Source of the DNA: the human T2T-CHM13v2.0 reference genome, Homo sapiens
Assembly: GCF_009914755.1 (NCBI RefSeq)
Contig: NC_060936.1
Strand: one strand, 5' to 3'
DNA length: 64,000 bases
Below the pieces are notes generated by a model, which ran no database searches, was not told the DNA's origin, and saw only the letters and a program-made list of their open reading frames with translations. Position 1 is the first letter of the stretch. Every line of letters begins with the position of its first letter. This document shows, in pieces, positions 5,845-60,050 of the stretch. The position numbers and the translations under genes are program-made.

Positions 5845-7471
5845 AGGCCATCGATGCTATAAAGAAACTGCACCAACTAATGGCCAAAATAAAAAGCTAG
5901 CATCATAATGACAGTATCAAATTCACACATAACAATATTAACCTTAAATGTAAATGGGCTAAGTGCCCAAATTAAAAGACTCAGACTGGGAAACTGGATG
6001 AAGAGTCAAGACCCATCAGTGTGCTGTATTCAGAGACCCATCTCATGTGCAGAGACACACATAGGGTCAAAATAAAGGGATGGAGGAAGATCTACCAAAC
6101 AAATGGAAAGCAAAAAAAAATAGGGGTTACAATCCTAGTCTCTGATAAAACAGACTTTAAACCAACAAAGATCAAAAGAGACGAAGATTGGCATTACATA
6201 ATGGTAAAGGGATCAATGCAACAAAAAGAGAATAACTATCCTAAATATATATGCACTCAATACAGGAGCACCCAGATTCATAAAGCAAGTTCTTAGAGAC
6301 CTACAAAGAGACTTAGATTCCTACACAATAATAGTGGGAGACTTTAACACCCCACTGTCAATCTTAGACAGGACAACGAGACAGAAAATTAACAAGAATA
6401 TTCAGGACTTGAACTCAGCTCTGGACCAAATGGAACTAATAGACATCTACAGAACCCTCCACCCCAAATCAACAGAATATACATTCTTCTCAGCACCACA
6501 TCACACCTACTCTAAAACTGACCACATAATTGGAAGTAAAACACTCCTCAGCAAATGGAAAGGAACAAAAATCATAACAAACAGTCTCTCAGACCACAGT
6601 GCAATCAAATTACAACTCAGAATTAAGAAAATCACTCAAAATCGCACACCTACATGGAAACTGAACAACCTGCTCCTGAATGACTACTGGGTAAATAAGG
6701 AAATTAAGGCAGAAATAAAGAAGTTCTTTGAAACCAATGAGAAAAAAGACTCAACATACCAGAATATCTGGGACACATTTAAAGCAGTGTCTAGAGGGAA
6801 ATTTAAAGCACTAAATGCTCACAAGAGAAAGCAGGAAAGATCTAAAATCAACACCCTAACATCACAACTAAAATAACTTGGGAAGCAAGAGCAAATAAAT
6901 TCACAATCTAGCAAAAGACAAGAAATAACTGAGATCAGATCAGAACAGAAGGAGATAGAGATATGAAAAACCCCTCAAAAGATTAATGAATCCAGGAGCT
7001 GGTTTTTTGAAAATATCAACAAAATCGATTGACCACTACCCATATTAATACAGAAGAAAAGAGAGGAGACTCAAATAGACACAATAAAAAATGATAAAGG
7101 GGATATCACCACTGATCCCACAGAAATACAAACTGCCATCAGAGAATACTATAAACACCTCTATGCAAATAAACTAGAAAATCTAGAAGAAATGGGTAAA
7201 TTCCTGGACACATACACCCTCCCAAGACTAAACCAGGAAGAAGTTGAATCCCTGAATAGAACAATAACAAGTTCTGAAATTGAGGCAGTAATTAATAGCC
7301 TACCAACTAAAAAAAAGTCCAGGACCAGACAGATTCACAGATGAATTCACCCAGTGGTTAAAAGAGGAGCTGATACCATTCCTTCTGAAACTATTCCAAA
7401 CAATAGAAAAAGAGGGAATTCTCCCTAACTCATTTTATGAGGCCAACATCATCCTGATACCAAAGCCCGAC

Positions 7472-8541
7472 TGTTGCGGGAAGTCAGGGACCCCAAACGG
7501 AGGGACCAGCTGAAGCCATGGCAGAAGAACGTAGATTGTGAAGATTTCATGGACATTTATTAGTTCCCCAAATTAATACTTTTGTAATTTCTTATGCCTG
7601 TCTTTACTGCAATCTCTAAACATAAATTGTGAAGATTTCATGGACACTTATCACTTCCCCAATCAATACCCTTGTGATTTCCTATGCCTGTCTTTACTTT
7701 AATCTCTTAATCCTATCAGCTGAGGAGGATGTTTGTCGCCTCAGGACTCTATAATAATTGCATTAACTGCACAAATTGTACAGCATGTGTGTTTGAGCAA
7801 TATGAAATCTGGGCACCTTGAAAAAAGAACAGGATAACAGGAATTGTTCAGGGAACAAGAGAGATAACTTTAAACTCTGACCGCCGGTGAGCCAGGTGTA
7901 ACAGAGCCATATTTCTCTTCTTTCAAAAGCAAATGGGAGAAATATCGCTGAATTCCTTTTCTCAGCAAGGAACATCCCTGGGAAAGAGAATATGTGCCTG
8001 GGGGTGGATCTCTGAACTGGCCTCCCTGGGTGTGGCCGTCTCTTATGGTCGAGGGTGTAGGGGTGAAATAGACCCCAGTCTCCCAAGCATTCCCAGGCTT
8101 ATTAGGAAGAGGAAATTCCCGCCTAATAAATTTTGGTCAGACCTGTTGATCTCAAAGCCCTGTCTCCTGATAAGATGTTATCAATGACAATGGTGCCTGA
8201 AACTTCATTAGCAATTTTAATTTTGCCTCGGTCCTGTGGTCCTGTGATCTTGCCCTGTCTCCACTTGCCTTGTGATATTTTATTACCTTGTAAAGTACTT
8301 GATGTCTGTGGCCCACACCTATTCGCACACTCCCTCCACTTTTGAAAATCCCTAATAAAATCTTGCTGGTTTTTGTGGCTTGTGGGGCATCACAGAACCT
8401 ACCGACATGTGATGTCTACCCCAGATGCCCAGCTCTAAAATTTCTCTCTTTTGTACTCTGTCCCTTTATTTCTCAAGCTGGCCAATTCTTAAGGAAAATA
8501 GAAAAGAACCTACTTGAGTATCGGGGGCAGAGTCCCCGATA
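7472..8541 (+). mobile_element. MER11 (MER11C-like, 1070 bp) LTR, inverted relative to the provirus body
   Basis: Starts TGTTGCGGGAAGTCAGGGACCCC, internal ~90 bp tandem duplication, AATAAA, ends CCCCGATA. Confidence 0.92.
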
Positions 8542-8543
8542 TC

Positions 8544-8561
8544 TGGCGCCCAACGTGGGGC
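8544..8561 (+). promoter_or_regulatory. Primer-binding site, perfect 18-nt complement of the tRNA-Lys(CUU) 3' end
   Basis: TGGCGCCCAACGTGGGGC, 2 nt after the LTR end. Confidence 0.93.
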
Positions 8562-9870
8562 CAGTTTGATTATTCGTCCAAATTTTGATATTTCCTACTA
8601 ACAGCATGTAAAGAGGCTTAACACAACTCTGTATGGGAACAGTCAGGTTGGAGGTAAGTAAAGCAGAATGTCTGGGTCTACGATGATACTGAGAGAGTGG
8701 GACGGTAGTGGGAACAACAGTCAGAATAGTTTTCCCTTCCCATACTCGCAGTCCGGACATGGCACAGCCAATTTCCAAAGTTCTGGGTGTTCTGGGCCCA
8801 GAATGGGAAGTATCATACGAGGCCTCGGAGGGGGCGGTAATGCCTTTATTTTCCCATTTTAAGGGAACGAATGAGCTGATCCTCCTATGCAAAGTTGAAT
8901 GATGATTCTCATTCTCCTGATAAGAAATAAAATTAGCCTCCAGGCTTTCCCTTCCACCAGAGAAGCAATTGTTTTTTAAATAGCCCTTTGGTGCTCAGTC
9001 TATTACTAAACCATATGAGTCATTTTTTAATATTGCTGCATGTGAGTTAACACAATCTTCCAAATTAAAGTTTTAGATGGGCCCTCAAAATTTTTAGGTC
9101 ATGATTTTCCTGCAGGTTTATATTGAAAGTATGGGGTATCTCCCATTACTCCTCCTTTCATTTGTTTTAAAGGAGAAAGGGAGAGGCCAGAGACCAAATG
9201 TCCCGTTTTATCTGTAGCTGATCTTTCCGGAAGATAAACGGCCCAGACTTGAGTTTCTAGATGGATGCAACCAGGTGCATGTCTGAGACACAGAGGCGGG
9301 TATTTATAACCCATGGTAACATTAAATGCAGTGCCTTCTTCTCCTGGTTGAGCAGGGCAATGGTCATCTGTGGCTCCAGGCATCCACACACTATCGTTAG
9401 TGTAGATTTCTGCAGGAGCATCTATCCAGTTGAGACGTTGAATAAGTGGAGGAACAGGCACATAAGCCCAGTAAGAATAATTATGTGTAGCAGATAAATC
9501 AGTGTGAGAGAAAACTGGTGAGACAGAAAGTATGAGGAGGAGAATCATTAAATAAAACCTAGTGTAAGTGAGATTGAGTGCTGAAGGAGGAAGAGAAGAA
9601 CAGAGGGATGTTATTTTCAGGCTAATAGAAATGGCAAGATTTTTACATTTGTAAGGAGAAAAAGAAAGGTAATCAGGAGAAGTGTGATTAGTTAGATGGG
9701 CCTCCATTGCCATCATGGAGGATTGATTTATACCCATTGTTATTTGGTGTGCCTGTTTCTGAGGAGTTGGCACAGATCTCACCACGTCTGAAGGCAGTCT
9801 CTGACACAGACACCTTTTCTCTGTGATTTTCGTTGTCAGTATTCACCTGACGCTTGAGTCTTCTGGGGGG
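8562..9870 (-). pseudogene. env: HML-8 env remnant (signal peptide and SU only; TM missing)
   Basis: NYSYWAYVPVPPLI, YTNDSVWMPGATDD, GYKYPPLCL and CVKPLYMLLVGNI are homologous to HML-2 SU; truncated before the furin site. Confidence 0.88.
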
Positions 9871-12371
9871 TACCCAGACAGGGGATTGATGATCTCCTGG
9901 TGAAACACAAGCATATCCTCTTCCCCACATTATAATTGTGCCAGGTTCTCAGGTATTGGTTTGGGAGTTTTTCCATAACACTGGCTTGCCTTCGTTTAAG
10001 GAGAATTTTTTGCCTGTATAATGGTGTTCGGCTGCAGTTAGAGTATTATCTTTAGGAACAGTTAAAAAATTTAAAGTAAACAATGCCAAATGTAATTGGG
10101 AGTGGGGAGTAGTTAAATCATGTTTTGGTTGTTCAGATTGTTTGGACAATTGGGTTTTTAAAGTGCGATTGGCCTGCTCCACCACAGCCTGTCCCTGAGG
10201 ATTGTAAGGGATTCCAGTAATATGGGAAATTTCCCACTGTTGCATAAATGAATCAAAAACCTTACTAACAATTCTAGGGGCATTGTCTATCTTTATTTGA
10301 TATGGAAGCCTCATAACTGCAAAGCAAGAATATAGATTTTTTTTTAACATGGGCTGTGCCTTCCCCTCTTTGGCAAGTAGCCCAGATAAAACCTGAGAAG
10401 GTATCTACAGAGACATGCACATATGACAGTCTGCCAAAGGAGCTAACATGAGTCACATCCATTTGCCATAAAGCATTAGGAGTTAGGCCTCTAGGATTAA
10501 TGCCAGATTCCTGATTTGGAAGTACGAAGACCTGGCACTGAGGGCAGCTGTGAACAATAAACTTAGCCTGTTTCCAGGTAAGAGCAAACTTATCTTTTAA
10601 TCCAGCGGCATTGACGTGAGCGAGATTATGGAACTCCTGAGCTTCTTGGGTTGCAAAATAGACCAAAGAGTCGACTTTATGGTTACTGGCAGACATGGGT
10701 CCTGGTAAAGTGGTATGAAACCTAGTATGTGTAATATAGAAAGGGTGTCTATGTTGGTGAACCGCCTGTTGTAACCTTGAAAATAAAGAAGCCAATTCAG
10801 AATTATCAATATGTTTGATAGTAGCAGTTTCTATATTTTTAGTGGCATGTACAACATAAGCAGAAGCTGAGACAATATTTAAAGGTTTGGGGAAATCCTG
10901 TATAGCAGTAATCACAGCAATTAACTCCACATTTTGAGCAGAAGTATAAGAGGTAGAAATAAGTTTGTCTGTAGGACCTACGTAACTGGCATTGCCATTA
11001 CTGGAGCCATCATTGAACACTGTAACAGCCTCAGGAATGGGTTGATCTTTGGTTAATAGAGGAACCACCCAAGACATCATTTTTATAAAATCAAACAATT
11101 TGTTTTTTGGATAATGATTGTCAATAACACCAATAAAATCAGCCAAGTGAATTTGCCATGGTACAGAATGTTGAAAGGCAGCTTGAACTTCGAGCCGATT
11201 TAAAGGAATTACAATTAAGTTTGGATCAAATCCAGAAATTTGAAGTATTCTGCACTGAGCCTGTCCAATTAATATGGCTATTTGGTCTAGATAAACAGAC
11301 AAAGTTTTTGACACAGAATGAGGAAGAAAACACCACTCCACTAAATTATTATGTTGAACTATTAGTCCAGTAGGGGAGTGTAATGAAGAAAAACCAGAAG
11401 CTGAAGAGGCTGAAATGGCTGTACTCTAGATAACTGGGCAGTCTGGATTCTTTCCTCTATGAATTCCAGTTCTAGTAAAGCCTCAGGAGTCAAAGTCCTG
11501 GTGCTGCAGGATCGGAATCTCCCCGCAGAGTAGAGAATAAGTTAGACAGCACACAGGTTGGAATGCCTAAAGTAGGTCTTAAATAATTAATGTTACCCAA
11601 AAGTTTTTGGAAGTCATTTAACATTTTTAAAGAATCTCTCCTAATTTGAACTTTTTGAGGTTGAATACATTGTTTATCAACCACCGTTCCTAAATATTGA
11701 ACAGGAGTGGTCTGTTGAATTTTATCCTGAGCGATGTGCAATCCAGCCTCTGTAACACAGTGGCTCTAAATTTGGTAACAGTCAATTAATTGTTTATCAG
11801 TGGGGGCAGCAATTAAAATATCATCAATATAATGAAGAATATAGACCTCAGGAAATTGGGCTTGAACTGGTGAAAGCACTTGTCCAACATAAAGCTGGCA
11901 GATTGTAGGGCTATTTAGCATTCCCTGAGGAAGTACTTTCCATTGATAACGAGCTGCAGGCTCCTGATTATTGATAGATGGTACAGTAAAAGCAAATTTT
12001 TCACAATCCAATTTATGTAAAGCAATATGAAAAAAAACTTTAAGATCAATAACTATGAGAGGCCAATTTTTAGGTATTAAAGCAGGGGCAGGCATTCCAG
12101 GTTGGATGACCCCCATAGGTTTAATCACAGTATTAATGGCCCTTAAATCGGTTACCATCTGCCATTTGCCTGATTTCTTCTTTACTAGAAACACAGGAGA
12201 ATTCCAAGGGGAAAGAGAAGGTTCCACATTTCCAAGTTGCAACTGCTCAGAAACCAATTGATTTAAAGCCTCCAGTTTTTCTTTAGAAAGTGGCCACTGC
12301 TGAATCCAGGCAGGTGTGTCAGATTTCCATTGCAAGGTAATAGGATCAGGAGGCATGGCAGCAGCCGCCAC
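9688..12371 (-). pseudogene. pol: HML-8 pol remnant (RT, RNase H, integrase), frameshifted
   Basis: LPQGMLNSP and YIDD (RT); DGSSNG (RNase H); HNLAH..CPQC, WQMDVTH, PYNPQGQAVVE and [11 protein letters not shown] (IN). Confidence 0.93.
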
Positions 12372-12929
12372 TAAAAATGATAACCTAAACCAGCCCTGTT
12401 TTCTTTTATAGTAACTGGGAGGGGTTTAGTAATCCCTTCATGCTTTGGACCGAGACTGAGTCCAGGAACAAACCCCATATTTTCCATCATATGCTGACTG
12501 GGAGCACTATAAGTGTTATGTGGAATATTAATTTCAGCCTCCCACTGTGCCAGTAAATCTACACCCCAAAGATTAATGGGAATTGGTATGATATAGGGCT
12601 GAATTGTACCCTTTTGACCATCAGGGCCAGTGCAAGGCAAGATAAATGTGCTCTCATAAACTTCCTCAGCCTTTCCAACACCTACTAGTCCCATGTTAGC
12701 CAGATGTTTAAGCCAAGAGGAAGGCCATAAACTAGAGGAAATAACAGAAACATCAGCACCAGTATCTACTAGGCCCTCAAACTTTCTTCCTTGAATGTGT
12801 ATGGTGCAGGTGGGCCGTTGTTTAGAAATTATATTAATCCAATAAGCGGCCTTTTCACCACCGGAGCCCATCCCAGGGCCACATGTCTTATCTACTATGT
12901 TTAAAACAATATTAGGTAGTCAAAGCAAT
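12371..12929 (-). pseudogene. pro: HML-8 pro remnant: dUTPase C-terminal stub, aspartic protease and G-patch
   Basis: GLVDTGADVSVI active site, PINLWGVDLL, G-patch MMENMGFVPGLSLG; protease frame open 12371-12871. Confidence 0.9.
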
Positions 12930-14694
12930 TGTTAAAAACTTTTTAACAGTGCAATTTTTTTGAATATGACCAAGTTGTTCACAATCATAGCAGGCTCCAA
13001 GAGAAGAATTAATGGGACCAGTGTGGTTGGTGTCCTTCATGGCCCATGCCCACAGAATAGTTTTGTGGGCATCTGATCCAATGCCTTCACAAGCTTTAAT
13101 ATATGCAGGCAACACCTCATGATCAGGTAAATTTTGTCGTTGGACAGAACGCATGGCCATTTTACATTCATGGTTTGCATTTTCAAAAGCTAACATAGGA
13201 AGGAGAATGCCTTGAGCGCACTCATCAGAGACAGATTTTTTAACAGCATCTTGTAATTTAGCCAAAAAATCAGGGTATAATTCAGGGTGACCTTGTTTAA
13301 CTGTGGTAAAAGAAACAGGAGTTTGGCCTGGAGCACATAATTTATCCCAAGCTCTCATGCACACCTTTGTTACTTGTTCTGTGGTAAGGGCATCAAAGTT
13401 TAATTGGGCATAAGCATCAGAGAAACTATGGGAGCCTGTGAGCTGAGCTTGAGTAATTAGAATGCCATTACTGTTATTTAGCTGAGCCTACAAACGGGCC
13501 TCCTCTGACCACCAGGTATGGAATTGTAAATGCTGAGATGGGGTTAGAACAGCTTTTGCCGAAAGGTCCCAATCTAAAGGGAGTAAAGTGACCTCAGTAC
13601 AAAAAGTTTGTAAAACCATCTTAACATAAGGAGAAGTAGGACCATACTGAGTACAAGCATCCTTAAATTCTTTTAAAAAGGTAAGATTAAGAGGTACATA
13701 ATGATGCATTTGCAACCCTTGGAAGTTAGGTGGGTCTAGCGCGACCAGATAAGTCCACGCGTCTAATCCACTTGTTTCTCTGTTTTGGCATAACAAGCTT
13801 TGCATTGAAGTTTCAAGAGTAGGCATCTGAGTCGGAGTCAGCATAGAAGTGACAGGAAAAGCATGTGTAGATAAGGGAAACTGAAGGTGAGAGGGTCGGA
13901 CTGGGATGAGAGTGTGAGAAAGAGGCATTGGGGGAGCAGAAGGAGCAGAAGTATACTGGTGATTACTGGTGTTCACGTGTGAAGAAGGGTACAGAGAAGC
14001 AGGCTGAGTAGATGGTAAAGTGACTGGTTGAGGAACCGAAATGACAGGAGGGTGAGGGGCTGAAGTGGGTGGGGGAGGGCCAGCAGAATTACAGGTAAAG
14101 TGTAGTTTGGTCCCAGAGCCGCTAGGTGATTCCAGAGGTTTGAGAAGAGAAGAATTAGCATATATAGGATCCTGGGCTGTGTGAGTCCAGGCTGCAGGAG
14201 TTACACGTACTGGTTATTCATGAAAAGAAATAAGATCATCAGGGTGACCATAAGTCAAAGTCACTGGAGTTAGACATTGAATTGTCTACATTGTCAGGTA
14301 GGGAAGGAGTAGCCGGAGGGAGAGGCTGATCAGATAACGAAGGCCGTGCAGGAGAGAAAGATTGAAGAAAAGGTGGAGGATCGTCAGATTCAGAAAACTG
14401 TGGTAACTGTAGGGGGCCATGGGATTGGTATGTCATCAGGACAGCACGTACCAAGGCCCAGTCACCCCAAACAGTGATGGGAACATAATTCCCTGTGGAG
14501 ACCAGTTCCCTGAATGTTGTAGCAACATGATCCCATAGTTCTACACCTAAGGTTCCTTTTTCAGGAAACCAAGTACAGTATTTTTCTACCGTCCTGAATA
14601 GAGTGATCATATTTTCCATAGGCAATTGAACACCGCCCTGTTTTAACAGGAGTTTAATATAGCAGAGATAAGCATGATGCTTAGACTCTGCATG
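12930..14694 (-). pseudogene. gag: HML-8 gag remnant (MA, Pro-rich region, CA, first zinc knuckle)
   Basis: MA YCTWFPEKGTL; CA LKEFKDACTQYGPTSPY; MHR VKQGHPELYPDFLAKL; knuckle CYDCEQLGHIQKNC. Confidence 0.9.
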
Positions 14695-14699
14695 AAAGA

Positions 14700-14717
14700 A
14701 AGACCATGGGGGTGCCA
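14700..14717 (-). promoter_or_regulatory. Degenerate genomic PBS of the provirus
   Basis: TGGCACCCCCATGGTCTT, 2 nt downstream of the minus-strand LTR. Confidence 0.8.
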
Positions 14718-14719
14718 GA

Positions 14720-15788
14720 TATCAGGGAATCTGCCCCGATATTCAAGTAGGTTCTTTTCTATTTTCCTTAAGTGTAGGCCAGCTTGAGAAATAAAGGAAC
14801 AGAGTACAAAAGAGAGAAATTTTAAAGCTCAGTGTCTGGGGGAGACATCACATGTCAGTAGGTTCCGTGATGCCCCACAAGCCACAGAAACCAGCAAGTT
14901 TTTATTAGGGATTTTCAAAAGGGGAGGGAGTGTGCGAATAGGTGTGGTCATAGGCATCAAGTATTTTACAAGGTAATAGAATATCACAAGGCAAGTGGAG
15001 GCAGGGAAAGATCACAGGACCACAGGACCAAGGCAAAATTAAAATTGCTAATGAAGTTTTGGGCACGATTGTCATTGATAACATCTTATCAGGAGACAGG
15101 GTTTTGAGATCAAGCGGTCCGACCAAAATTTATTAGGCGGGAATTTCCTCTTCCTAATAGGCCTGGGAACGCTATAGGAGACTGGGGTCTATTTCACCCC
15201 TACAGCCTCGACCATAAGAGACGGCCGTGCCCAGGGGGGCCAGTTCAGAGACCCACCCCCAGGCACATATTCTCTTTCCCAGGGATGTTCCTTGCTGAGA
15301 AAAGGAATTCAGCGATATTTCTCCCATTTGCTTTTGAAAGAAGAGAAATATGGCTCTGTTACACCTGGCTCACCGGTGGTCAGAGTTTAAGGTTATCTCT
15401 CTTATTCCCTGAACAATTGCTGCTATCCTGTTCTTTTTTCAAGGTGCCCAGATTTCATATTGCTCAAACACACATGCTGTACAATTTGTGCAGTTAATGC
15501 AATTATTACAGGGTCCTGAGGCGACATACATCCTCCTCAGCTGATAGGATTAAGAGATTAAAGTAAAGACAGGCATAGGAAATCACAAGGGTATTGATTG
15601 GGGAAGTGATAAGTGTCCATGAAATCTTCACAATTTATGTTTAGAGATTGCAGTAAAGACAGGCATAAGAAATTACAAAAGTATTAATTTGGGGAACTAA
15701 TAAATGTCCATGAAATCTTCACAATCTACATTCTTCTGCCATGGCTTCAGCCGGTCCCTCCATTTGGGGTCCCTGACTTCCCGCAACA
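14720..15788 (-). mobile_element. MER11 5' LTR (1069 bp)
   Basis: Reverse complement of 7472-8541, roughly 95% identical by eye. Confidence 0.93.
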
Positions 15789-18299
15789 CCTGACAGAGAC
15801 ACAACAAAAAGAGAAAATTTAGGCCAATATACCTGATGAACATCAATGCGAAAATCCTCAGTATAATACTGGCAAACTGAATCCAGCAGCACATCAAAAA
15901 GCTTATCCACTACGATCAAGTGGGCTTTATCCCTGGGATGCAAGGCTGGTTCTACATACATAAATCAATAAACACAATCCATCACATAAACAGAAGCAAT
16001 GACAAAACAAGATTATCTCAATAAATTCAGAAAAGGCCTTCGACAAAAATCAACAGCCCTTCATGCTAAAATCTCTCAATGAACTAGGTATCTGTTCAAA
16101 ATAATAAGAGCTATTTATGATAAACCCACAGCCAATATCATACTTAATTGGCAAAACCCAGAAGCATTCCCATTGAAAACTGGCACAAGACAAGGATGCC
16201 CTCTTTCACCAATCCTCTTCAACATATTATTGAAAGTTCTGGCCAGGGCAACTGGAGAAGAGAAAGAAATAAAGCTTATTCAAATAGGAATAGAGGAATT
16301 CAAATTGTCTCTGTTTGCAGATGACATGATTGTATATTTAGAAAATCCCATCATCTCAGCCCAAAATCTTCTTAAGCTGATAAGCAACTTCAGCAAATCC
16401 TGAGGATACAAAATCAATGTGCAAAAATCACAAGCATTCCTACACAACCATAACAGACAAACAGAGAGCCAAATCAAGAGTGAACTCCCATTCACAATTA
16501 CTACAAAGAGAATAAAACACCTCGGAATACAACTTACAAGGGAGTGAAGGACCTCTTCAAGGGGAACCACAAACCACTGCCCAAGGAAATAAGAGAGGAC
16601 ACAAACAAATGGAAAAACATTCCATGCTCATGGATAGGAAGAATCAATATCGTGAAAATGGCCATACTGCCTAAAGTAATTTATACATTTAATGCTATCC
16701 CCATCAAGCTACCATTGATTTTCTTCCCAGAATTAGAAAAAACTACTTTAAATTTCATATGGAACCAAAAAAGGGTCCACATAGCCAAGACAATCCTAAG
16801 CAAAAAGAACAACACTGTAGGCATCACACTACCTGATTTCAAACTATACTACAAGGACACCATAACCAAAACAGCATAGTACTTTTACCAAAACAGATAT
16901 ACAGATAAATGGAACAGAACAGAGGCCTCAGAAATAACACCACAGATGGTGGTAATAACATATGAGATGTAGATACAGCCATCTGATCTTGGGCAAACCT
17001 TACAGAAACAAGCATTGGGGAAAGGATTCCCTATTCAATAAAAGGTGTTGGAAAAACTGGCTAGCCATATGCAGAAAACTGAAACTGGACCCCTTCCTTA
17101 CACCTTATACAAAAATTAACTCAAGATGGATTAAAGACTTAAATGTAATACCTAACACCATAAAAACTCTAGAAGAAAACCTAGGCACTACCATTCTGGA
17201 CATAGATATGGGCAAAGACTTCACGACTAAAACACCAAAAGCATTGGCAACAAAAGCCAAAATTGACAAATAGGATCTAATTAAACTAAAGAGCTTCTGC
17301 ACAGCATAAGAAACTATCATCAGAGGGAACAGGCAACCTACAGAATTGGAGAAAATCTTTGCAATCTATCTATCTGACAAGAGGCTAATATCCAGAATCT
17401 ACAAATAACTTAAACAAATTTACAAGAAAAAAAAACCATCAAAAAGTGGGCGAAGGATATGAACAGATACTTCTCAAAAGAAGACATTTATGCAGCCAAG
17501 AAACATATGAAAAAAAGCTCATTATCACTGATTATTAGAGATATGAAAGTCAAAACAATAATGAGATACCATCTCATGCCAGTTTGAATGGCCGTCATTA
17601 AAAAGTCAGTAAACAACAGATGCTGGACAGGATGTGGAGAAAAATGAATGCTTTTACACTGTTGGTGGGAGTGTAAATTAGTTCAACCATTGTGGAAGAC
17701 AGTGTGGCAATTCCTCAAGGATCTACAACTAGAAATACCATTTGACCCAGCAATCGCATTACTGGTATATACCCAAAGGATTATAAATTATTCTACTATA
17801 AAGACACTTGCACACATATGTTTATTGTGGCACTGTTCTCAATATCAAAGACCCATTTGATATTGGAAATGGGTTTTTTGATGTGGAAAAAACCCAAATG
17901 CCCATCAATGATAGACTGGATAAAGAAAATGTGGCACATATATACTGTGGAATACTATGCAGCCATAAAAAAGGATGACTTCATGTCCTTTGCAGGTACA
18001 TGAACGACGCTGGAAACAATCATTCTTAGCAAACTAACACAAGAACGGAAAATCAAACACCACATGTTCTCACTCATAAGTGGGAGTTGAACAATGAGAA
18101 CACATGGACACAGGGAGGGGAACATCACACACTGAGGTGAGGGGCTAAGGGATGGATAGCATTAGGAGAAACACTTAATATGATGACAGGTTGATGGGTG
18201 CAGCAAACCACCATGGCACGTGTATATCTATGTAACAAACCTACACGTTCTGCACATGCACCCCAGAACTTAAAGTACAATAATAAAAAAAAGAAAAAA

Positions 18300-57547: not shown

Positions 57548-60050
57548 CATAACTCTGTTTATTTGATGAATTACATTTATTGATTTATGTGTGTTGAACC
57601 AACCTTGCATCCCAGGAGCAAAGCCTATTCGGTCATGGTGAGCTAACTTTCCAATGAGCTCCTGGATTTGAGTTGCTAGTATTTTGTTGAGGATGTTTGC
57701 ACTACACATCAGGGATATCAGCCTGTAGTTTTCATTTTGCGTGATGTCATTAGCAGATTTTGGTATCAGGATAAGGCTCGCTTCATAAAATGAGTTAGAC
57801 AGGAGTCCCTCCTCCTCAATTTTTTAGAATAGTTTCAATAGGATTGGTACCAGCTCAGATGCAGAAAAAGCTTTCAATAAAATCCAACATTTCTTCATGA
57901 TAAAAACTCTCAATGACCTAGGCATGGAAGGAACATACGTCAAAATAGTAAGAGTAATCTATGACAAACTGCCATCCAACATCACGAGTGGGCACAAACT
58001 TAAAGCATTTCTGTTGAAAACTGGAAAAAGTTAAGAATGCCTAGTCTCACCACTCTTATTCAACTTAGTACTAGAAGTCCTAACGAGAACAATCAGACAA
58101 GAGAAAGAAAGCAAAAGCATCTAAACAGGAAAATAATTCAAATTATCTCTCTTTGCTGATGATATAATTCTATAACCAGAAAACCCTGAAAACTTCATCA
58201 AAAGGCTCCTAGAACTGATAAGTGATTTCAGTAAAGTTTCAGGATACAAAATCCATGCACAAAAAGCAGCAACATTTCTACACACCAATAACGTTCAAGC
58301 TGAAAGCCAAATTAAGAATGCAATTCCATTTATAATAACCACACACACACAAATAAAATACCTAGGAATATGTCTAACCCAGGAGGTGAAAAAAATCTCT
58401 CTAATGAGAACTATAAAATACTACTAAATGAAATCAGAGATGACACAACAAATGGAAAACATTCCATGCTCATGGGTAGTAAGAATCAATTCTGTTAAAA
58501 TGACCATGATGCCCAAAGCAATTCATATTCAACACACTTCCTATTAAACCACCAATGCCATTCTTCACAGAATTAGAAAAAAATATTTTAAAATTCATAT
58601 TGAGCCAAACAAAGAGCCTGAATTACCAAAGCAATCCTAAGCAAAAAGAACAAAGCTAGAGGCATCCCATCACTTGATTTCAAACAATACTACAAGGCTA
58701 CAGTAAGCAAAACCTCATGATAATGGTACAAAAGCAGACATACAGTTCAATGGAGCAGAATAAAGAACCCAGAAATAAAGCCACACACCTACTTCCATCT
58801 GATACATGACAAAATCAACAAACATAGGCAACAAGATTCCCTATTCAATAAATGGTGCTGAAAATACTACCTAACCACATGCAGAAGAATGAAACTGAGC
58901 CACTACATTTCACCATAAGCAAAAATTAACTTAGGATGGATTAAATACTTTAAATATAAGACCTAAACTATAAAAATCCTTGAAGAAAACCTATGAAATA
59001 TCATTTTAGATATAGGCCTTGGGAAATAATTTATGACTAAGACCTCAAAAGGAATTGCAACAAAAACAAAAATTGACAAGTGGGACCCAATTAAAATGAA
59101 GAGTTTCTGCACAGCAGAAGGAACTCAACAGAGTAAACAGACAACCTAAAGGATGGGAGAAAATATTCGCAAACTATGCATCAACAAGCAAAAAACAAAT
59201 AACTCCATTCAAATGTAGGTAAAGGACATGAACAGACACTTTTCTAAGAAAGACATACCTGTGGCCAACAAAGAAATGAAAAAATGCTCCACATCACTAA
59301 TCATCAGACAAATGCAAAAATAAAAACTACAATAAGATACCTGAGATGTCATACCAGTCAGAATGGCTATTATTAAAAAGTTAAAAACAACAGATGTTAT
59401 CAAGCTTGTGGAGATAAGGGAATGCTTACATTATTGGTGAGAATGTAAATTAGTTCAGCCACTGTGGGAGTAGTTTGGAGATTTCTCAAAGGACCAGAAA
59501 CAGAACTACCATTTGACCCAGCAATCTTATTACTCAGTATATACTCAAAAAATAGAAATTGTTTTATGAAAAGGACAAATGCACTTCTGTGTTCATTGCA
59601 GTGCTGTTCACAATATCAATGACTTGGAATTAACCCAGCTCCCCATTAACAGTGGATTGTATAAAGAAAATATGGTATGTACACACATGGAATATATATG
59701 CAGCCATGAAAAAGAAAATGTGGCACATTTACAACATGGAATACTATGCAGCCATAAAAAACTCTGTTCTTTGCAGCAGCATAGATGCACCCGGAGGCCA
59801 TTATCATAAGCAAGACAGAAACTGAAAACCAAATACTGCATGTTCTGATGTATAAGTGGGAGTCTAATATTGGATACACATGGACATAAAGATGCAAACA
59901 ATAGACACTGGGGACTACTAACAGGAGGAGGGAGACAGTGAGAGAAGGGCTGAAAACTACCTGGGTGATGGGATCAATCACAGCCCAAACCTCATGCAAC
60001 AAACTTATATAACAAACCTCCATATGTAGCCCCAAATCTAAAATAAAAAT
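57548..60050 (+). mobile_element. L1PA15/16-like 5'-truncated L1 with 5' inversion (57548-57856 on minus)
   Basis: The inverted ORF2 piece maps immediately upstream of the sense piece starting AGATGCAGAAAAAGC at 57857. Confidence 0.85.

What the first reader, a model, noticed from the sequence alone, without database searches (positions are those of the whole stretch)
7466..15794. HML-8 provirus with two inverted 5'-type LTRs, integrated as one event through two U3 ends
Seen: MER11 LTR on + (7472-8541) plus PBS, then env, pol, pro and gag on minus, a second PBS, and a MER11 LTR on - (14720-15788). Both outer ends are the U3 terminus (TGTTGCGGG...CCCGCAACA). One 6-bp TSD (CCCGAC/CCTGAC, one CpG transition) flanks the unit, and the host L1 ORF2 continues with no loss. 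Known: retroviral LTRs are direct repeats, and betaretroviral integrase joins one U3 and one U5 end, making 5-6 bp TSDs. Inference: an aberrant U3/U3-ended DNA was integrated in a concerted reaction. Env TM, the PPT and the true 3' LTR are missing. A later inversion of the 3' LTR would not create a second PBS.
Basis: partly seen in the sequence, partly recalled or inferred. Interest (0 to 1): 0.92.

Follow-up and report, generated by a model that had tools for sequence, protein, structure and literature searches.

The report
Provirus inserted by two U3 ends

Summary
Window 7472-15788 is one 8317-bp unit. Its parts are a MER11C LTR (+), TC, an 18-nt PBS, then env-pol-pro-gag, a second PBS and an LTR on the minus strand. 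Both outer ends are U3 termini. The host L1 ORF2 resumes with exactly 6 nt duplicated (CCCGAC/CCTGAC).

New points:
- The left arm ends bluntly at nucleotide 18 of a perfect copy of the tRNA-Lys(CTT) 3' end. [quoted passage not shown]
- None of 29 ordinary HML-8 5' junctions read here has that 18-nt form; they match the tRNA for at most 15 nt. The right arm carries the ordinary form.
- About 850 nt (the rest of env plus the polypurine tract) are missing.
- The two LTRs are each other's closest relatives (5.0% apart).
- A second unit on chromosome 3 has the same logic: LTR + 9 nt of PBS + inverted U3 1-155, with a perfect 6-bp duplication.

Best reading (about 0.85): an aberrant plus-strand intermediate was integrated by integrase through two U3 ends. 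Whether reverse transcriptase or host end-joining joined the inner ends is open.

The published HML-8 catalogue lists the locus without the left LTR. Six literature searches found no such case. Verdict: new variant of a known kind; interest about 0.62.

The parts
7466..7471 (+). Left copy of the 6-bp target-site duplication (CCCGAC), inside host L1 ORF2
   Evidence: the left flank ends at L1 ORF2p residue 521.
7472..8541 (+). Left MER11C LTR (U3-R-U5), 1070 nt. It starts TGTTGCGGG and ends ...CCCCGATA.
   Evidence: (most of the 40 scored LTR matches, several shown to be solo LTRs, end at 8541).
8542..8543 (+). TC dinucleotide between the U5 end and the PBS. These are the two bases integrase would remove at a U5 end.
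   Evidence: solo LTRs end at ...GATA, directly followed by their 6-bp duplications.
8544..8561 (+). 18-nt PBS, TGGCGCCCAACGTGGGGC. It is a perfect complement of the last 18 nt of tRNA-Lys(CTT)+CCA and stops before A58. With the LTR it forms a full-length plus-strand strong-stop DNA.
   Evidence: single exact match in the window; tRNA gene; blunt junction.
8562..9842 (-). env remnant (SU part). It is cut off at 8562, about 848 nt before where the 3' LTR starts in other copies.
   Evidence: (HERV-K_env_2).
9949..12425 (-). pol remnant (RT, thumb, RNase H, integrase Zn and core), with several stops and frameshifts.
12371..12919 (-). pro (retroviral aspartyl protease, G-patch).
12912..14721 (-). 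gag remnant (p10, p24 N and C domains, zinc knuckle) and shortened leader. About 136 nt of leader present in other copies are missing at about 14695.
14700..14717 (-). Right, genome-type PBS (TGGCACCCCCATGGTCTT). It differs at 2 positions from the form in the closest relatives (TGGCACCCACGTGGTCTT).
14720..15788 (-). Right MER11C LTR (a true 5' LTR of the minus-strand provirus), 1069 nt.
15789..15794 (+). Right copy of the target-site duplication (CCTGAC). L1 ORF2 resumes at residue 520.

Best explanation
The unit is a by-product of faulty reverse transcription of an HML-8 (HERVK11/MER11C) virus, integrated in the ape germ line by the viral integrase through two U3 ends instead of one U3 and one U5 end.

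Shown:
- The right arm is the left part of a normal viral DNA: 5' LTR, genome-type PBS, leader, gag, pro, pol and env up to a point about 850 nt before the PPT.
- The left arm is exactly a plus-strand strong-stop DNA: U3-R-U5-TC plus an 18-nt copy of the tRNA-Lys primer, stopping before A58.
- The two arms are joined head to head with no overlap and no extra bases.
- Both outer ends are exact U3 termini.
- The host L1 carries one 6-bp duplication of the length typical for this family.

Inferred route, first version (about 45% of the total). The substrate was a gapped intermediate: double-stranded from the 5' LTR to the growing plus-strand tip in env, then single-stranded minus DNA over the last 850 nt of env and the PPT, then a double-stranded 3' LTR made by a PPT-primed strong-stop strand that still carried its 18-nt tRNA-copy tail. 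That tail left the U5 end unfit for integrase. Loss of the single-stranded gap left two duplex pieces, each with a good U3 end. The intasome joined these two ends to the target, and host end-joining sealed the inner ends.

Inferred route, second version (about 35 to 40%). Reverse transcriptase itself continued the strong-stop strand on the 3' end of the growing plus strand, as an end-to-end switch. This gave a single U3/U3-ended molecule that was then integrated normally.

Possible contributing features of the family (speculative). Its PBS matches the tRNA for at most 15 nt, so the 3' GGC of strong-stop DNA is mismatched at the second strand transfer. Its U5 end is ...TA rather than the canonical ...CA, while the U3 end is canonical.
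For: 1. Anatomy and the 6-bp duplication with no host loss.

2. The left arm ends exactly at PBS nucleotide 18. In 19 of 19 other copies env continues ...AATCAAACTG|TCCAATGCA (CCC in one copy). Here it reads ...AATCAAACTG|GCCCCACGTTGGGCGCCA.

3. The 18-mer equals the complement of the tRNA-Lys(CTT) gene 3' end plus CCA. The next tRNA base (A58) is not copied.

4. The left PBS is not the virus's own PBS.
- 0 of 29 ordinary HML-8 5' junctions read have ...GGGGC. These are 13 loci, 11 and 10, with 5 loci shared between lists; 4 of them are copies of one segmental duplication.
- The closest relatives also lack one A (CCCACG instead of CCCAACG), as does the right arm.
- The left and right PBS differ at 8 of 18 positions, against 5.0% in the LTRs.

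5. The missing segment is the stretch between the breakpoint and the U3 start, including the PPT.

6. The LTRs are each other's nearest relatives in both halves. They are 5.0% apart, against 5.8-12.0% to 10 other copies. Private changes are balanced, 23 against 26. This is as expected if the two LTRs were identical at integration.

7. 6-bp duplications are the family norm: L005 ACAAAG, L007 CATTTG, L080 GCCATG, L086 CTGAGA, L052 AGAAAC.

8. A second unit of the same logic lies at C3:179365900-179367140. It is a full LTR + TC + TGGCCCCCA + inverted U3 1-155, flanked by CAGAGT/CAGAGT.

9. Other fossils of strong-stop DNA occur in this family: an LTR plus a 63-nt or longer copy of the tRNA (L052, L085).

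10. hg38 holds the same 7229-bp minus-strand part. The published coordinates chr12:84102187-84109415 have the length of window 8560-15788. The structure therefore does not rest on the T2T assembly alone.
Against: - No orthologue could be read, so the state at integration is inferred from one genome.
- No empty site was seen; only L1 paralogue and protein continuity support the single insertion.
- At the rate used by the HML-8 paper (0.2%/My, halved for LTR pairs), the LTR divergence of 5.0% gives about 12.5 My. That is younger than the gibbon-shared age (20-30 My) and the 28.5 My listed there.
- Divergence is uneven: 2.2% in LTR nt 1-500 against 7.4% in the rest. Other copies also diverge less in the first half, but the drop is stronger for this pair. 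Gene conversion between the arms is possible and unexamined.
- The three last PBS bases (GGC) resemble the env bases at the breakpoint in 2 of 3 positions (GCC against TCC on the sense strand). A 15-nt PBS plus one later substitution is therefore not strictly excluded. The extra A argues independently for tRNA origin.
- Concerted use of two U3 ends by integrase in vivo is inferred, not shown.
- The family-wide scan was incomplete.
Confidence: 0.85

Rival explanations
1. Post-integration rearrangement. A normal minus-strand provirus was integrated, and later its 3' LTR was inverted in place and the env 3' part and PPT deleted.
For: Inverted repeats and deletions do arise in old proviruses. The right arm shows another, unexplained leader deletion of about 136 nt. 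No orthologue was available to exclude a later change.
Against: An inversion needs one breakpoint exactly at the host/LTR border and would put the U5 end, not the U3 end, away from the host only by coincidence. It cannot create a PBS next to the inverted LTR. Still less can it create one that is 18/18 tRNA-type when the element's own PBS is genome-type and one base shorter. The inner breakpoint falls exactly at PBS nucleotide 18. A second unit with a perfect duplication shows the same layout.
Confidence: 0.05
2. Two separate insertions (a plus-strand LTR-PBS unit and a minus-strand provirus, nested or adjacent), followed by a deletion between them.
For: Units of LTR plus tRNA copy exist on their own in this genome (L052, L085, L057 and others). 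MER11 LTRs are numerous (1930 U3 starts).
Against: Two insertions would leave two duplications or unrelated flanks. Here one hexamer flanks the whole unit and L1 ORF2 continues with exactly two codons repeated. The two LTRs are each other's closest relatives with balanced private changes. That is not expected for independent insertions. The deletion would have to end exactly at PBS nucleotide 18.
Confidence: 0.04
3. Assembly artefact: one LTR was placed in the wrong orientation.
For: Kilobase-size inverted repeats can confuse assemblers. No reads were available here.
Against: The junctions are unique sequence: L1|U3 on both sides and PBS|env inside. The two LTRs differ at 53 of 1066 sites, so they are not collapsed copies. 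The independently built hg38 gives the same 7229-bp length for the minus-strand part, up to the PBS/env junction. A mis-orientation would not produce a tRNA-type PBS.
Confidence: 0.02

Closest known systems
Ordinary HERV-K(HML-8)/HERVK11 provirus with MER11C LTRs (catalogue of Scognamiglio et al. 2022, PMC10194239; passages and supplement searched by term)
   Same: Same LTR family, gene order, Lys-type PBS and 6-bp duplication. The locus is listed there as 12q21.31, minus strand, MER11C, 28.5 My, oldest orthologue gibbon.
   Different: The LTRs are inverted, not direct. There is no PPT, no env 3' part and no 3' LTR, but there is a second, tRNA-type PBS. The catalogue's coordinates stop at the PBS/env junction. 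The left LTR is in neither the provirus interval nor the solitary-LTR table. The words 'inverted' and 'PBS' do not occur in the main text.
HIV-1 defective proviruses from aberrant second-strand transfer, with tRNA(Lys-3) sequence at the deletion junction (PMC12657518; passages read)
   Same: [quoted passage not shown] The error arises at the plus-strand transfer step.
   Different: In HIV the strand lands further down the minus strand. The product is therefore a direct-orientation deletion with normal U3 and U5 outer ends. Here the sequence beyond the junction is inverted and both outer ends are U3.
Aberrant integrations in which integrase inserts one good end and host enzymes insert the other (ASLV and HIV-1; PMC5041404, passages read)
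   Same: One viral end is unfit for integrase. Viral DNA can be joined to further viral DNA in either orientation. Host repair takes part.
   Different: Those events give large duplications, deletions or inversions of host DNA at the aberrant end. Here both ends are exact LTR termini with the normal short duplication, which indicates that integrase made both joins.
Concerted integration of two identical viral ends in vitro (two-donor assays; intasomes assembled on two U5 oligonucleotides). Recalled from general knowledge; no paper was read here.
   Same: It shows that an intasome does not need one U3 and one U5 end.
   Different: That is a test-tube reaction with short donors. Here it would be a natural, germ-line-fixed product.
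DIRS-type retroelements with inverted LTRs (PMC3950715 and PMC7192593, seen only in the search listing)
   Same: Inverted terminal repeats flank a retroelement.
   Different: DIRS elements use a tyrosine recombinase and their inverted repeats are the normal design. This element encodes a DDE integrase (rve, Integrase_Zn) and belongs to a family whose LTRs are normally direct.

Membership tests
HERV-K(HML-8) / HERVK11 with MER11C LTR | LTRs homologous to MER11 copies genome-wide | tested here: met
   92-94% identity to full-length MER11 LTRs elsewhere; the locus is classed MER11C in print.
HERV-K(HML-8) / HERVK11 with MER11C LTR | Betaretrovirus-like gag-pro-pol-env with the matching domains | tested here: met
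   Gag_p10, Gag_p24, zf-CCHC, RVP, G-patch, RVT_1, RVT_thumb, RNase_H, Integrase_Zn, rve and HERV-K_env_2, in that order on the minus strand. No dUTPase domain was reported.
HERV-K(HML-8) / HERVK11 with MER11C LTR | Lys-type PBS after the 5' LTR | tested here: met
   the right arm has the family's genome-type Lys PBS (degenerate). The left arm has the full tRNA-type PBS.
Canonical integrated provirus | Two LTRs in direct orientation; outer ends are one U3 and one U5 | tested here: not met
   the LTRs are inverted and both outer ends are U3.
Canonical integrated provirus | PPT directly upstream of the 3' LTR | tested here: not met
   PPT present in 19 of 19 other copies; none in the window.
Canonical integrated provirus | Short target-site duplication of family-typical length | tested here: met
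   6 bp, with 5 of 6 bases identical (one CpG transition); 6 bp in other MER11 insertions.
Aberrant second-strand-transfer deletion provirus (HIV-1 type) | [quoted passage not shown] | tested here: met
   blunt junction after PBS nucleotide 18.
Aberrant second-strand-transfer deletion provirus (HIV-1 type) | Sequence beyond the junction in direct orientation, with normal 3' LTR | tested here: not met
   the sequence beyond the junction is env in the opposite orientation. There is no 3' LTR.
One-ended integrase plus host-mediated aberrant integration | One end abnormal (truncated, or joined with large host duplication, deletion or inversion) | tested here: not met
   both ends are exact LTR termini, and the host is changed only by the 6-bp duplication.
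Autointegration (inverted-circle) product | LTR ends joined to an internal viral site with a short duplication of viral sequence; no free LTR ends towards the host | tested here: not met
   the LTR U3 ends face host DNA. The inner junction is PBS|env, not an LTR terminus.
DIRS-like inverted-LTR retroelement | Tyrosine recombinase and no integrase-type duplication | tested here: not met
   rve/Integrase_Zn; 6-bp duplication.

The most novel reading that the evidence does not exclude
HML-8 was unusually prone to errors at the plus-strand transfer step. Two family features could explain this. Its PBS pairs with tRNA-Lys for at most 15 nt, which leaves the GGC 3' end of strong-stop DNA mismatched. 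Its U5 end is ...TA, not ...CA, while its U3 end is canonical. If so, strong-stop-DNA-derived units form a recurrent, overlooked class of germ-line insertions made by integrase from non-standard substrates. The class would include U3/U3-ended units such as this one and the chromosome 3 unit, and LTR + tRNA copy + short U5 stub units. Some elements now counted as 'solitary LTRs from recombination' would then have been born as single LTRs.
Probability: 0.3. Interest if true: 0.75.

Novelty: new variant of a known kind. Interest (0 to 1): 0.62.

Why it matters
- It would be natural, fixed evidence that a retroviral integrase can carry out a normal concerted integration with two identical (U3) ends in vivo.
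- It preserves a reverse-transcription intermediate (full-length plus-strand strong-stop DNA with its 18-nt tRNA copy) as a fossil about 20-30 My old.
- It shows that ERV catalogues built on the LTR-internal-LTR model miss such units. Here the left LTR is in neither list of the HML-8 catalogue.
- It points to a testable link between weak PBS complementarity or a non-canonical U5 end and aberrant products.
- It gives a search image (outward-facing U3 ends within one duplication; LTR + tRNA copy) for other ERV families and for long-read proviral data.
- A 1.07-kb inverted repeat 6.2 kb apart, inside a lncRNA intron, could also give long double-stranded RNA when transcribed. This was not tested.

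Tried and rejected
- Genome-wide list of U3 starts, to find all outward-facing pairs. 1930 matches were found but only 100 rows were listed, so the scan could not be done.
- Fetching 3-kb regions around the remaining 24 LTR-PBS places. Only 140-nt stretches were then read. For 10 of those 24 (L087, L093, L094, L097, L099, L102, L105, L106, L107, L109) I cannot tell chance matches from aberrant junctions.
- ARAGORN on the tRNA-like tails of L085 and L052 found nothing. Rfam's tRNA model did match L085 (32 bits, cut-off 29). L052 had no tRNA match at E 0.01.
- Direct translation of the L1 flanks failed on stop codons. Shorter stop-free stretches worked.
- Literature: searches found no description of a provirus integrated through two U3 ends. 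One search returned only unrelated uses of 'U3-U3', and one search returned 0 papers. One paper mentions in passing a guppy foamy-like ERV with 'inverted LTR', without analysis (PMC5210030).
- Autointegration, DIRS-like design, nested insertions and a simple inversion were considered and rejected (see membership tests and rivals).
- The idea that the uneven LTR divergence means two different template genomes was tested and not supported. The arms are nearest relatives in both halves, and other copies also diverge less in the first half.

Full report
**Observation**

The window holds two MER11 LTRs in inverted orientation.
- Arms 7472-8083/15177-15788 are 97% alike.
- Arms 8086-8313/14946-15173 are 93% alike.
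- Arms 8313-8526/14734-14947 are 93% alike.

Reading the ends gives two host junctions:
- ...ccaaagCCCGAC|TGTTGCGGG... on the left;
- ...CCCGCAACA|CCTGACagagacaca... on the right.

Both host junctions therefore abut the U3 start of an LTR.

A search of the window's own genome with 8300-8700 shows where the LTR ends. Most of the 40 scored matches (of 1545 candidates) end at 8541, that is at ...CCCCGATA. Solo LTRs with clear 6-bp duplications end there too: L005 ACAAAG and L007 CATTTG.

The left LTR is therefore 7472-8541. It is followed by TC and by TGGCGCCCAACGTGGGGC (8544-8561). That 18-mer is the only match to the pattern in the window at up to 3 mismatches.

On the minus strand, Pfam finds these domains in order:
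- Gag_p10, Gag_p24 (N and C), zf-CCHC;
- RVP, G-patch;
- RVT_1, RVT_thumb, RNase_H, Integrase_Zn, rve;
- HERV-K_env_2.

The right LTR is 14720-15788. It is preceded, in sense orientation followed, by TC and a degenerate PBS (14700-14717).

**Host site**

- The left flank translates to ...NIILIPKPD and aligns to human L1 ORF2p residues 467-520. Its last codon is therefore residue 521.
- The right flank begins PDRDTTK. After a 1-nt frameshift it aligns from residue 525 onward, which puts its first codon at residue 520.
- Exactly two codons (6 nt) are present twice and nothing is missing.
- The two copies differ by one C/T at a CpG.
- A diverged L1 paralogue in the same window has one copy of this position.

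**The left arm is plus-strand strong-stop DNA**

In 19 of 19 other HML-8 copies, env reads ...AATAATCAAACTG|TCCAATGCATTAATTG (CCC in one copy). Here it reads ...AATAATCAAACTG|GCCCCACGTTGGGCGCCA. The join is blunt, with no shared and no added bases. It lies exactly at the end of the 18-mer.

A tRNA-Lys(CTT) gene of this genome was found with the tRNA-like tail of locus L085 and confirmed by ARAGORN. It ends ...TTCGA|GCCCCACGTTGGGCG. With the added CCA, its last 18 nt are the exact complement of 8544-8561. The next base, A58, is not copied. That A58 is methylated and stops plus-strand strong-stop synthesis after 18 nt is recalled knowledge, not tested here.

The ordinary HML-8 PBS is different.
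- In 13 of the 19 loci L010-L028 it reads TGGCGCCCAACGTGG followed by T(T/C)TTTC. I left out L015, L019, L023, L025, L026 and L027, whose LTR-side match was missing or short.
- In the closest relatives it reads TGGCACCCACGTGGTCTTTC, with one A fewer.
- A pattern scan for LTR end plus PBS start found 54 places, against 4 for the control.
- Of the first 30 places, 11 are ordinary 5' LTR-PBS-leader junctions. Of the other 24, 10 are ordinary. All 21 are genome-type.
- Five loci are shared, so 0 of 29 ordinary junctions carry ...GGGGC. Four of the 29 are copies of one 8p23 duplication.

The right arm has the genome type, 2 substitutions from its relatives. The left and right PBS differ at 8 of 18 positions, while the LTRs differ at 5.0%.

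One caveat applies. On the sense strand the last three PBS bases (GCC) resemble the env bases at the break (TCC). A 15-nt PBS plus one later change is therefore not strictly excluded. The extra A speaks independently for tRNA origin.

**What is missing**

- In 19 of 19 other copies the 3' LTR starts 834-854 nt after the breakpoint-equivalent position.
- In the same 19 copies it is preceded by AAAAAGAAAGGGAGAGA.
- No such tract exists in the window.
- The unit therefore lacks the stretch between a point in env and the U3 start. That stretch is the region a growing plus strand has not yet covered.

**The two LTRs**

- They differ at 53 of 1066 aligned sites, or 5.0%.
- Each is closer to the other than to 10 usable comparison LTRs, which lie 5.8-12.0% away. 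An eleventh, L071, was mis-sliced and is disregarded.
- Differences polarised by the majority state of the comparison copies split 23 left-private, 26 right-private and 4 ambiguous.
- This fits two LTRs that were identical at integration.
- Divergence is uneven: 2.2% in nt 1-500 and 7.4% in the rest. Other copies also diverge less in the first half (4.0-9.4% against 7.4-14.3%), but the pair's drop is stronger. Gene conversion between the arms is possible.
- With the formula of the HML-8 paper (0.2%/My, halved for LTR pairs), 5.0% gives about 12.5 My. The same paper lists 28.5 My and gibbon as the oldest orthologue. This tension is unresolved.

**A second case and related fossils**

Locus L003/L074 (C3:179365900-179367140) consists of these parts:
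- a full MER11 LTR, then TC, then TGGCCCCCA;
- then U3 nt 1-155 in inverted orientation, 94% like the long arm;
- a perfect CAGAGT/CAGAGT duplication on the flanks.

Here too, both outer ends are U3 and one arm is a strong-stop strand, caught after 8-9 nt of the tRNA.

Among the 54 LTR-PBS places, only the chromosome 12 unit has two PBS facing each other within 12 kb.

Other fossils of strong-stop DNA in the family:
- L085 is an LTR + PBS + most of tRNA-Lys inside an Alu, without a clear duplication (Rfam tRNA 32 bits).
- L052 is an LTR + TC + a 63-nt tRNA copy + TCCCCCAATA, flanked by AGAAAC/AGAAAC.
- Five further units have an LTR + TC + 5-15 nt of PBS + a 4-19-nt U5 end before their duplication: L057, L065, L067, L080 and L086.

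HML-8 thus left many traces of errors at the tRNA-copy and plus-strand-transfer step.

**Mechanism**

Shown: two exact U3 termini, one family-typical 6-bp duplication, a full strong-stop arm, a blunt inner join and loss of the env-PPT stretch.

Inferred: integrase joined both U3 ends in one concerted reaction.

For the inner join I see two routes that the sequence cannot separate.
- Route 1. The substrate was a gapped intermediate whose 3' LTR was covered by a PPT-primed strong-stop strand still bearing the 18-nt tail. That tail spoiled the U5 end for integrase. The intermediate lost its single-stranded gap, and the two duplex pieces each offered a U3 end. Host end-joining sealed the inner ends. 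Blunt joins are typical of that pathway (recalled).
- Route 2. Reverse transcriptase switched from the end of the tRNA template to the 3' end of the growing plus strand. This made a U3/U3 molecule before integration.

Two family features may have favoured such products. The at most 15-nt PBS match leaves the 3' GGC of strong-stop DNA unpaired. The U5 end is ...TA in 12 of 13 copies and in solo LTRs, while the U3 end is the canonical TG.../...CA. This link is speculation.

**Rivals**

- A later inversion cannot make a tRNA-type PBS. It would also need breakpoints exactly at the host border and at PBS nucleotide 18.
- Two insertions plus a deletion do not fit one duplication, unbroken L1 continuity and sister LTRs.
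- Misassembly is unlikely. The junctions are unique, the arms differ at 53 sites, and hg38 gives the same 7229-bp minus-strand part.

**Comparison with print**

- The HML-8 catalogue (PMC10194239; passages and term searches of two supplementary files) lists the locus as a minus-strand MER11C provirus. Its interval has the length of window 8560-15788.
- The left LTR is absent from that interval. In the solitary-LTR table, the chr12 entries jump from 78.6 to 86.4 Mb.
- 'Inverted' and 'PBS' do not occur in its main text.
- A chimpanzee catalogue (PMC10918009, passages) lists chr12:81696811-81702819, minus strand, env 54.9%, 3' LTR 0%. This may be the orthologue but was not verified.
- HIV-1 work describes tRNA(Lys-3) inserts at deletion junctions from aberrant second-strand transfer, in direct orientation (PMC12657518).
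- HIV-1 work also describes rare proviral inversions (PMC9278108).
- ASLV and HIV work describes one-ended integrase events completed by the host, with large host rearrangements (PMC5041404).
- Six searches found no provirus integrated through two U3 ends. Only open-access papers and bioRxiv are covered, so older subscription literature may hold one.

**Verdict**

The finding is real. It is a new variant of a known kind: an aberrant retroviral DNA product that was integrated and fixed. It is of clear interest to retrovirologists and paleovirologists, but it rests on two fossils and on no orthologue yet.

Noticed in passing
L074 (= L003), G000:C3:179365900-179367140: Second unit with two outward U3 ends in one perfect 6-bp duplication (CAGAGT). 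It is a full MER11 LTR + TC + TGGCCCCCA + inverted U3 nt 1-155.
   Followed up: yes
L052 (G000:C7, about 12.733 Mb, minus strand) and L085 (= L053; G000:C7, about 98.371 Mb): MER11 LTR + PBS running on into a long copy of tRNA-Lys(CTT), read through past A58. L052 then carries a 10-nt U5 end and a perfect AGAAAC duplication. L085 sits in an Alu without a clear duplication.
   Followed up: partly
L057, L065, L067, L080, L086 (places listed): Five units of LTR + TC + 5-15 nt of PBS + a repeated 4-19-nt U5 end, directly followed by a 6-bp duplication (GATATG, GCCATG, CTGAGA; ATGTCT/ATGCCT). L065 is 5'-truncated in the locus, so its left flank could not be checked. L058, L073 and L077 carry a similar U5end-TCTGGC-U5end repeat inside a 5' LTR. 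The origin (slip-back during tRNA copying, or second-generation copies) is unresolved.
   Followed up: partly
window 8538-8543 and 14718-14723; L005-L007; L010-L028: The integrated U5 end of MER11 LTRs is ...GATA or ...AATA (TA, not the canonical CA) in 12 of 13 proviral junctions and in solo LTRs with clean duplications. One copy (L016) has ...GACA.
   Followed up: partly
L010-L028, L060-L110: The HML-8 genomic PBS matches tRNA-Lys for at most 15 nt (then T(T/C)TTTC). The MER11C-type relatives lack one A. A neighbouring family with LTR end ...CCCCAACATC has a PBS at or near the full 18-nt ...GGGGC form (exact in L100 and L103 after CpG changes), followed by TCCC(C/T)... (L068, L069, L076, L082, L100, L101, L103, L108).
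   Followed up: partly
window about 14695 (minus strand, just after the right PBS): About 136 nt of 5' leader present in all other scored HML-8 copies are missing in the right arm. No other scored copy shares the deletion (40 of 896 candidates scored).
   Followed up: partly
window 7472-7971 / 15289-15788 against the rest of the LTRs: The LTR pair diverges by 2.2% in the first 500 nt and 7.4% in the rest. This is partly a general rate difference along MER11 and possibly gene conversion between the inverted arms.
   Followed up: partly
window 57560-57856 (minus strand): An older, diverged L1 ORF2 fragment covers the same ORF2 region as the insertion site. It was used as a paralogous 'empty site'.
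   Followed up: yes
L058 (G000:C3, about 22.22 Mb): MER11 5' LTR + PBS + TCTTTCTT joined directly to U3 nt 292 onward in the same orientation. This is an internal deletion whose 5' edge lies just after the PBS.
   Followed up: no
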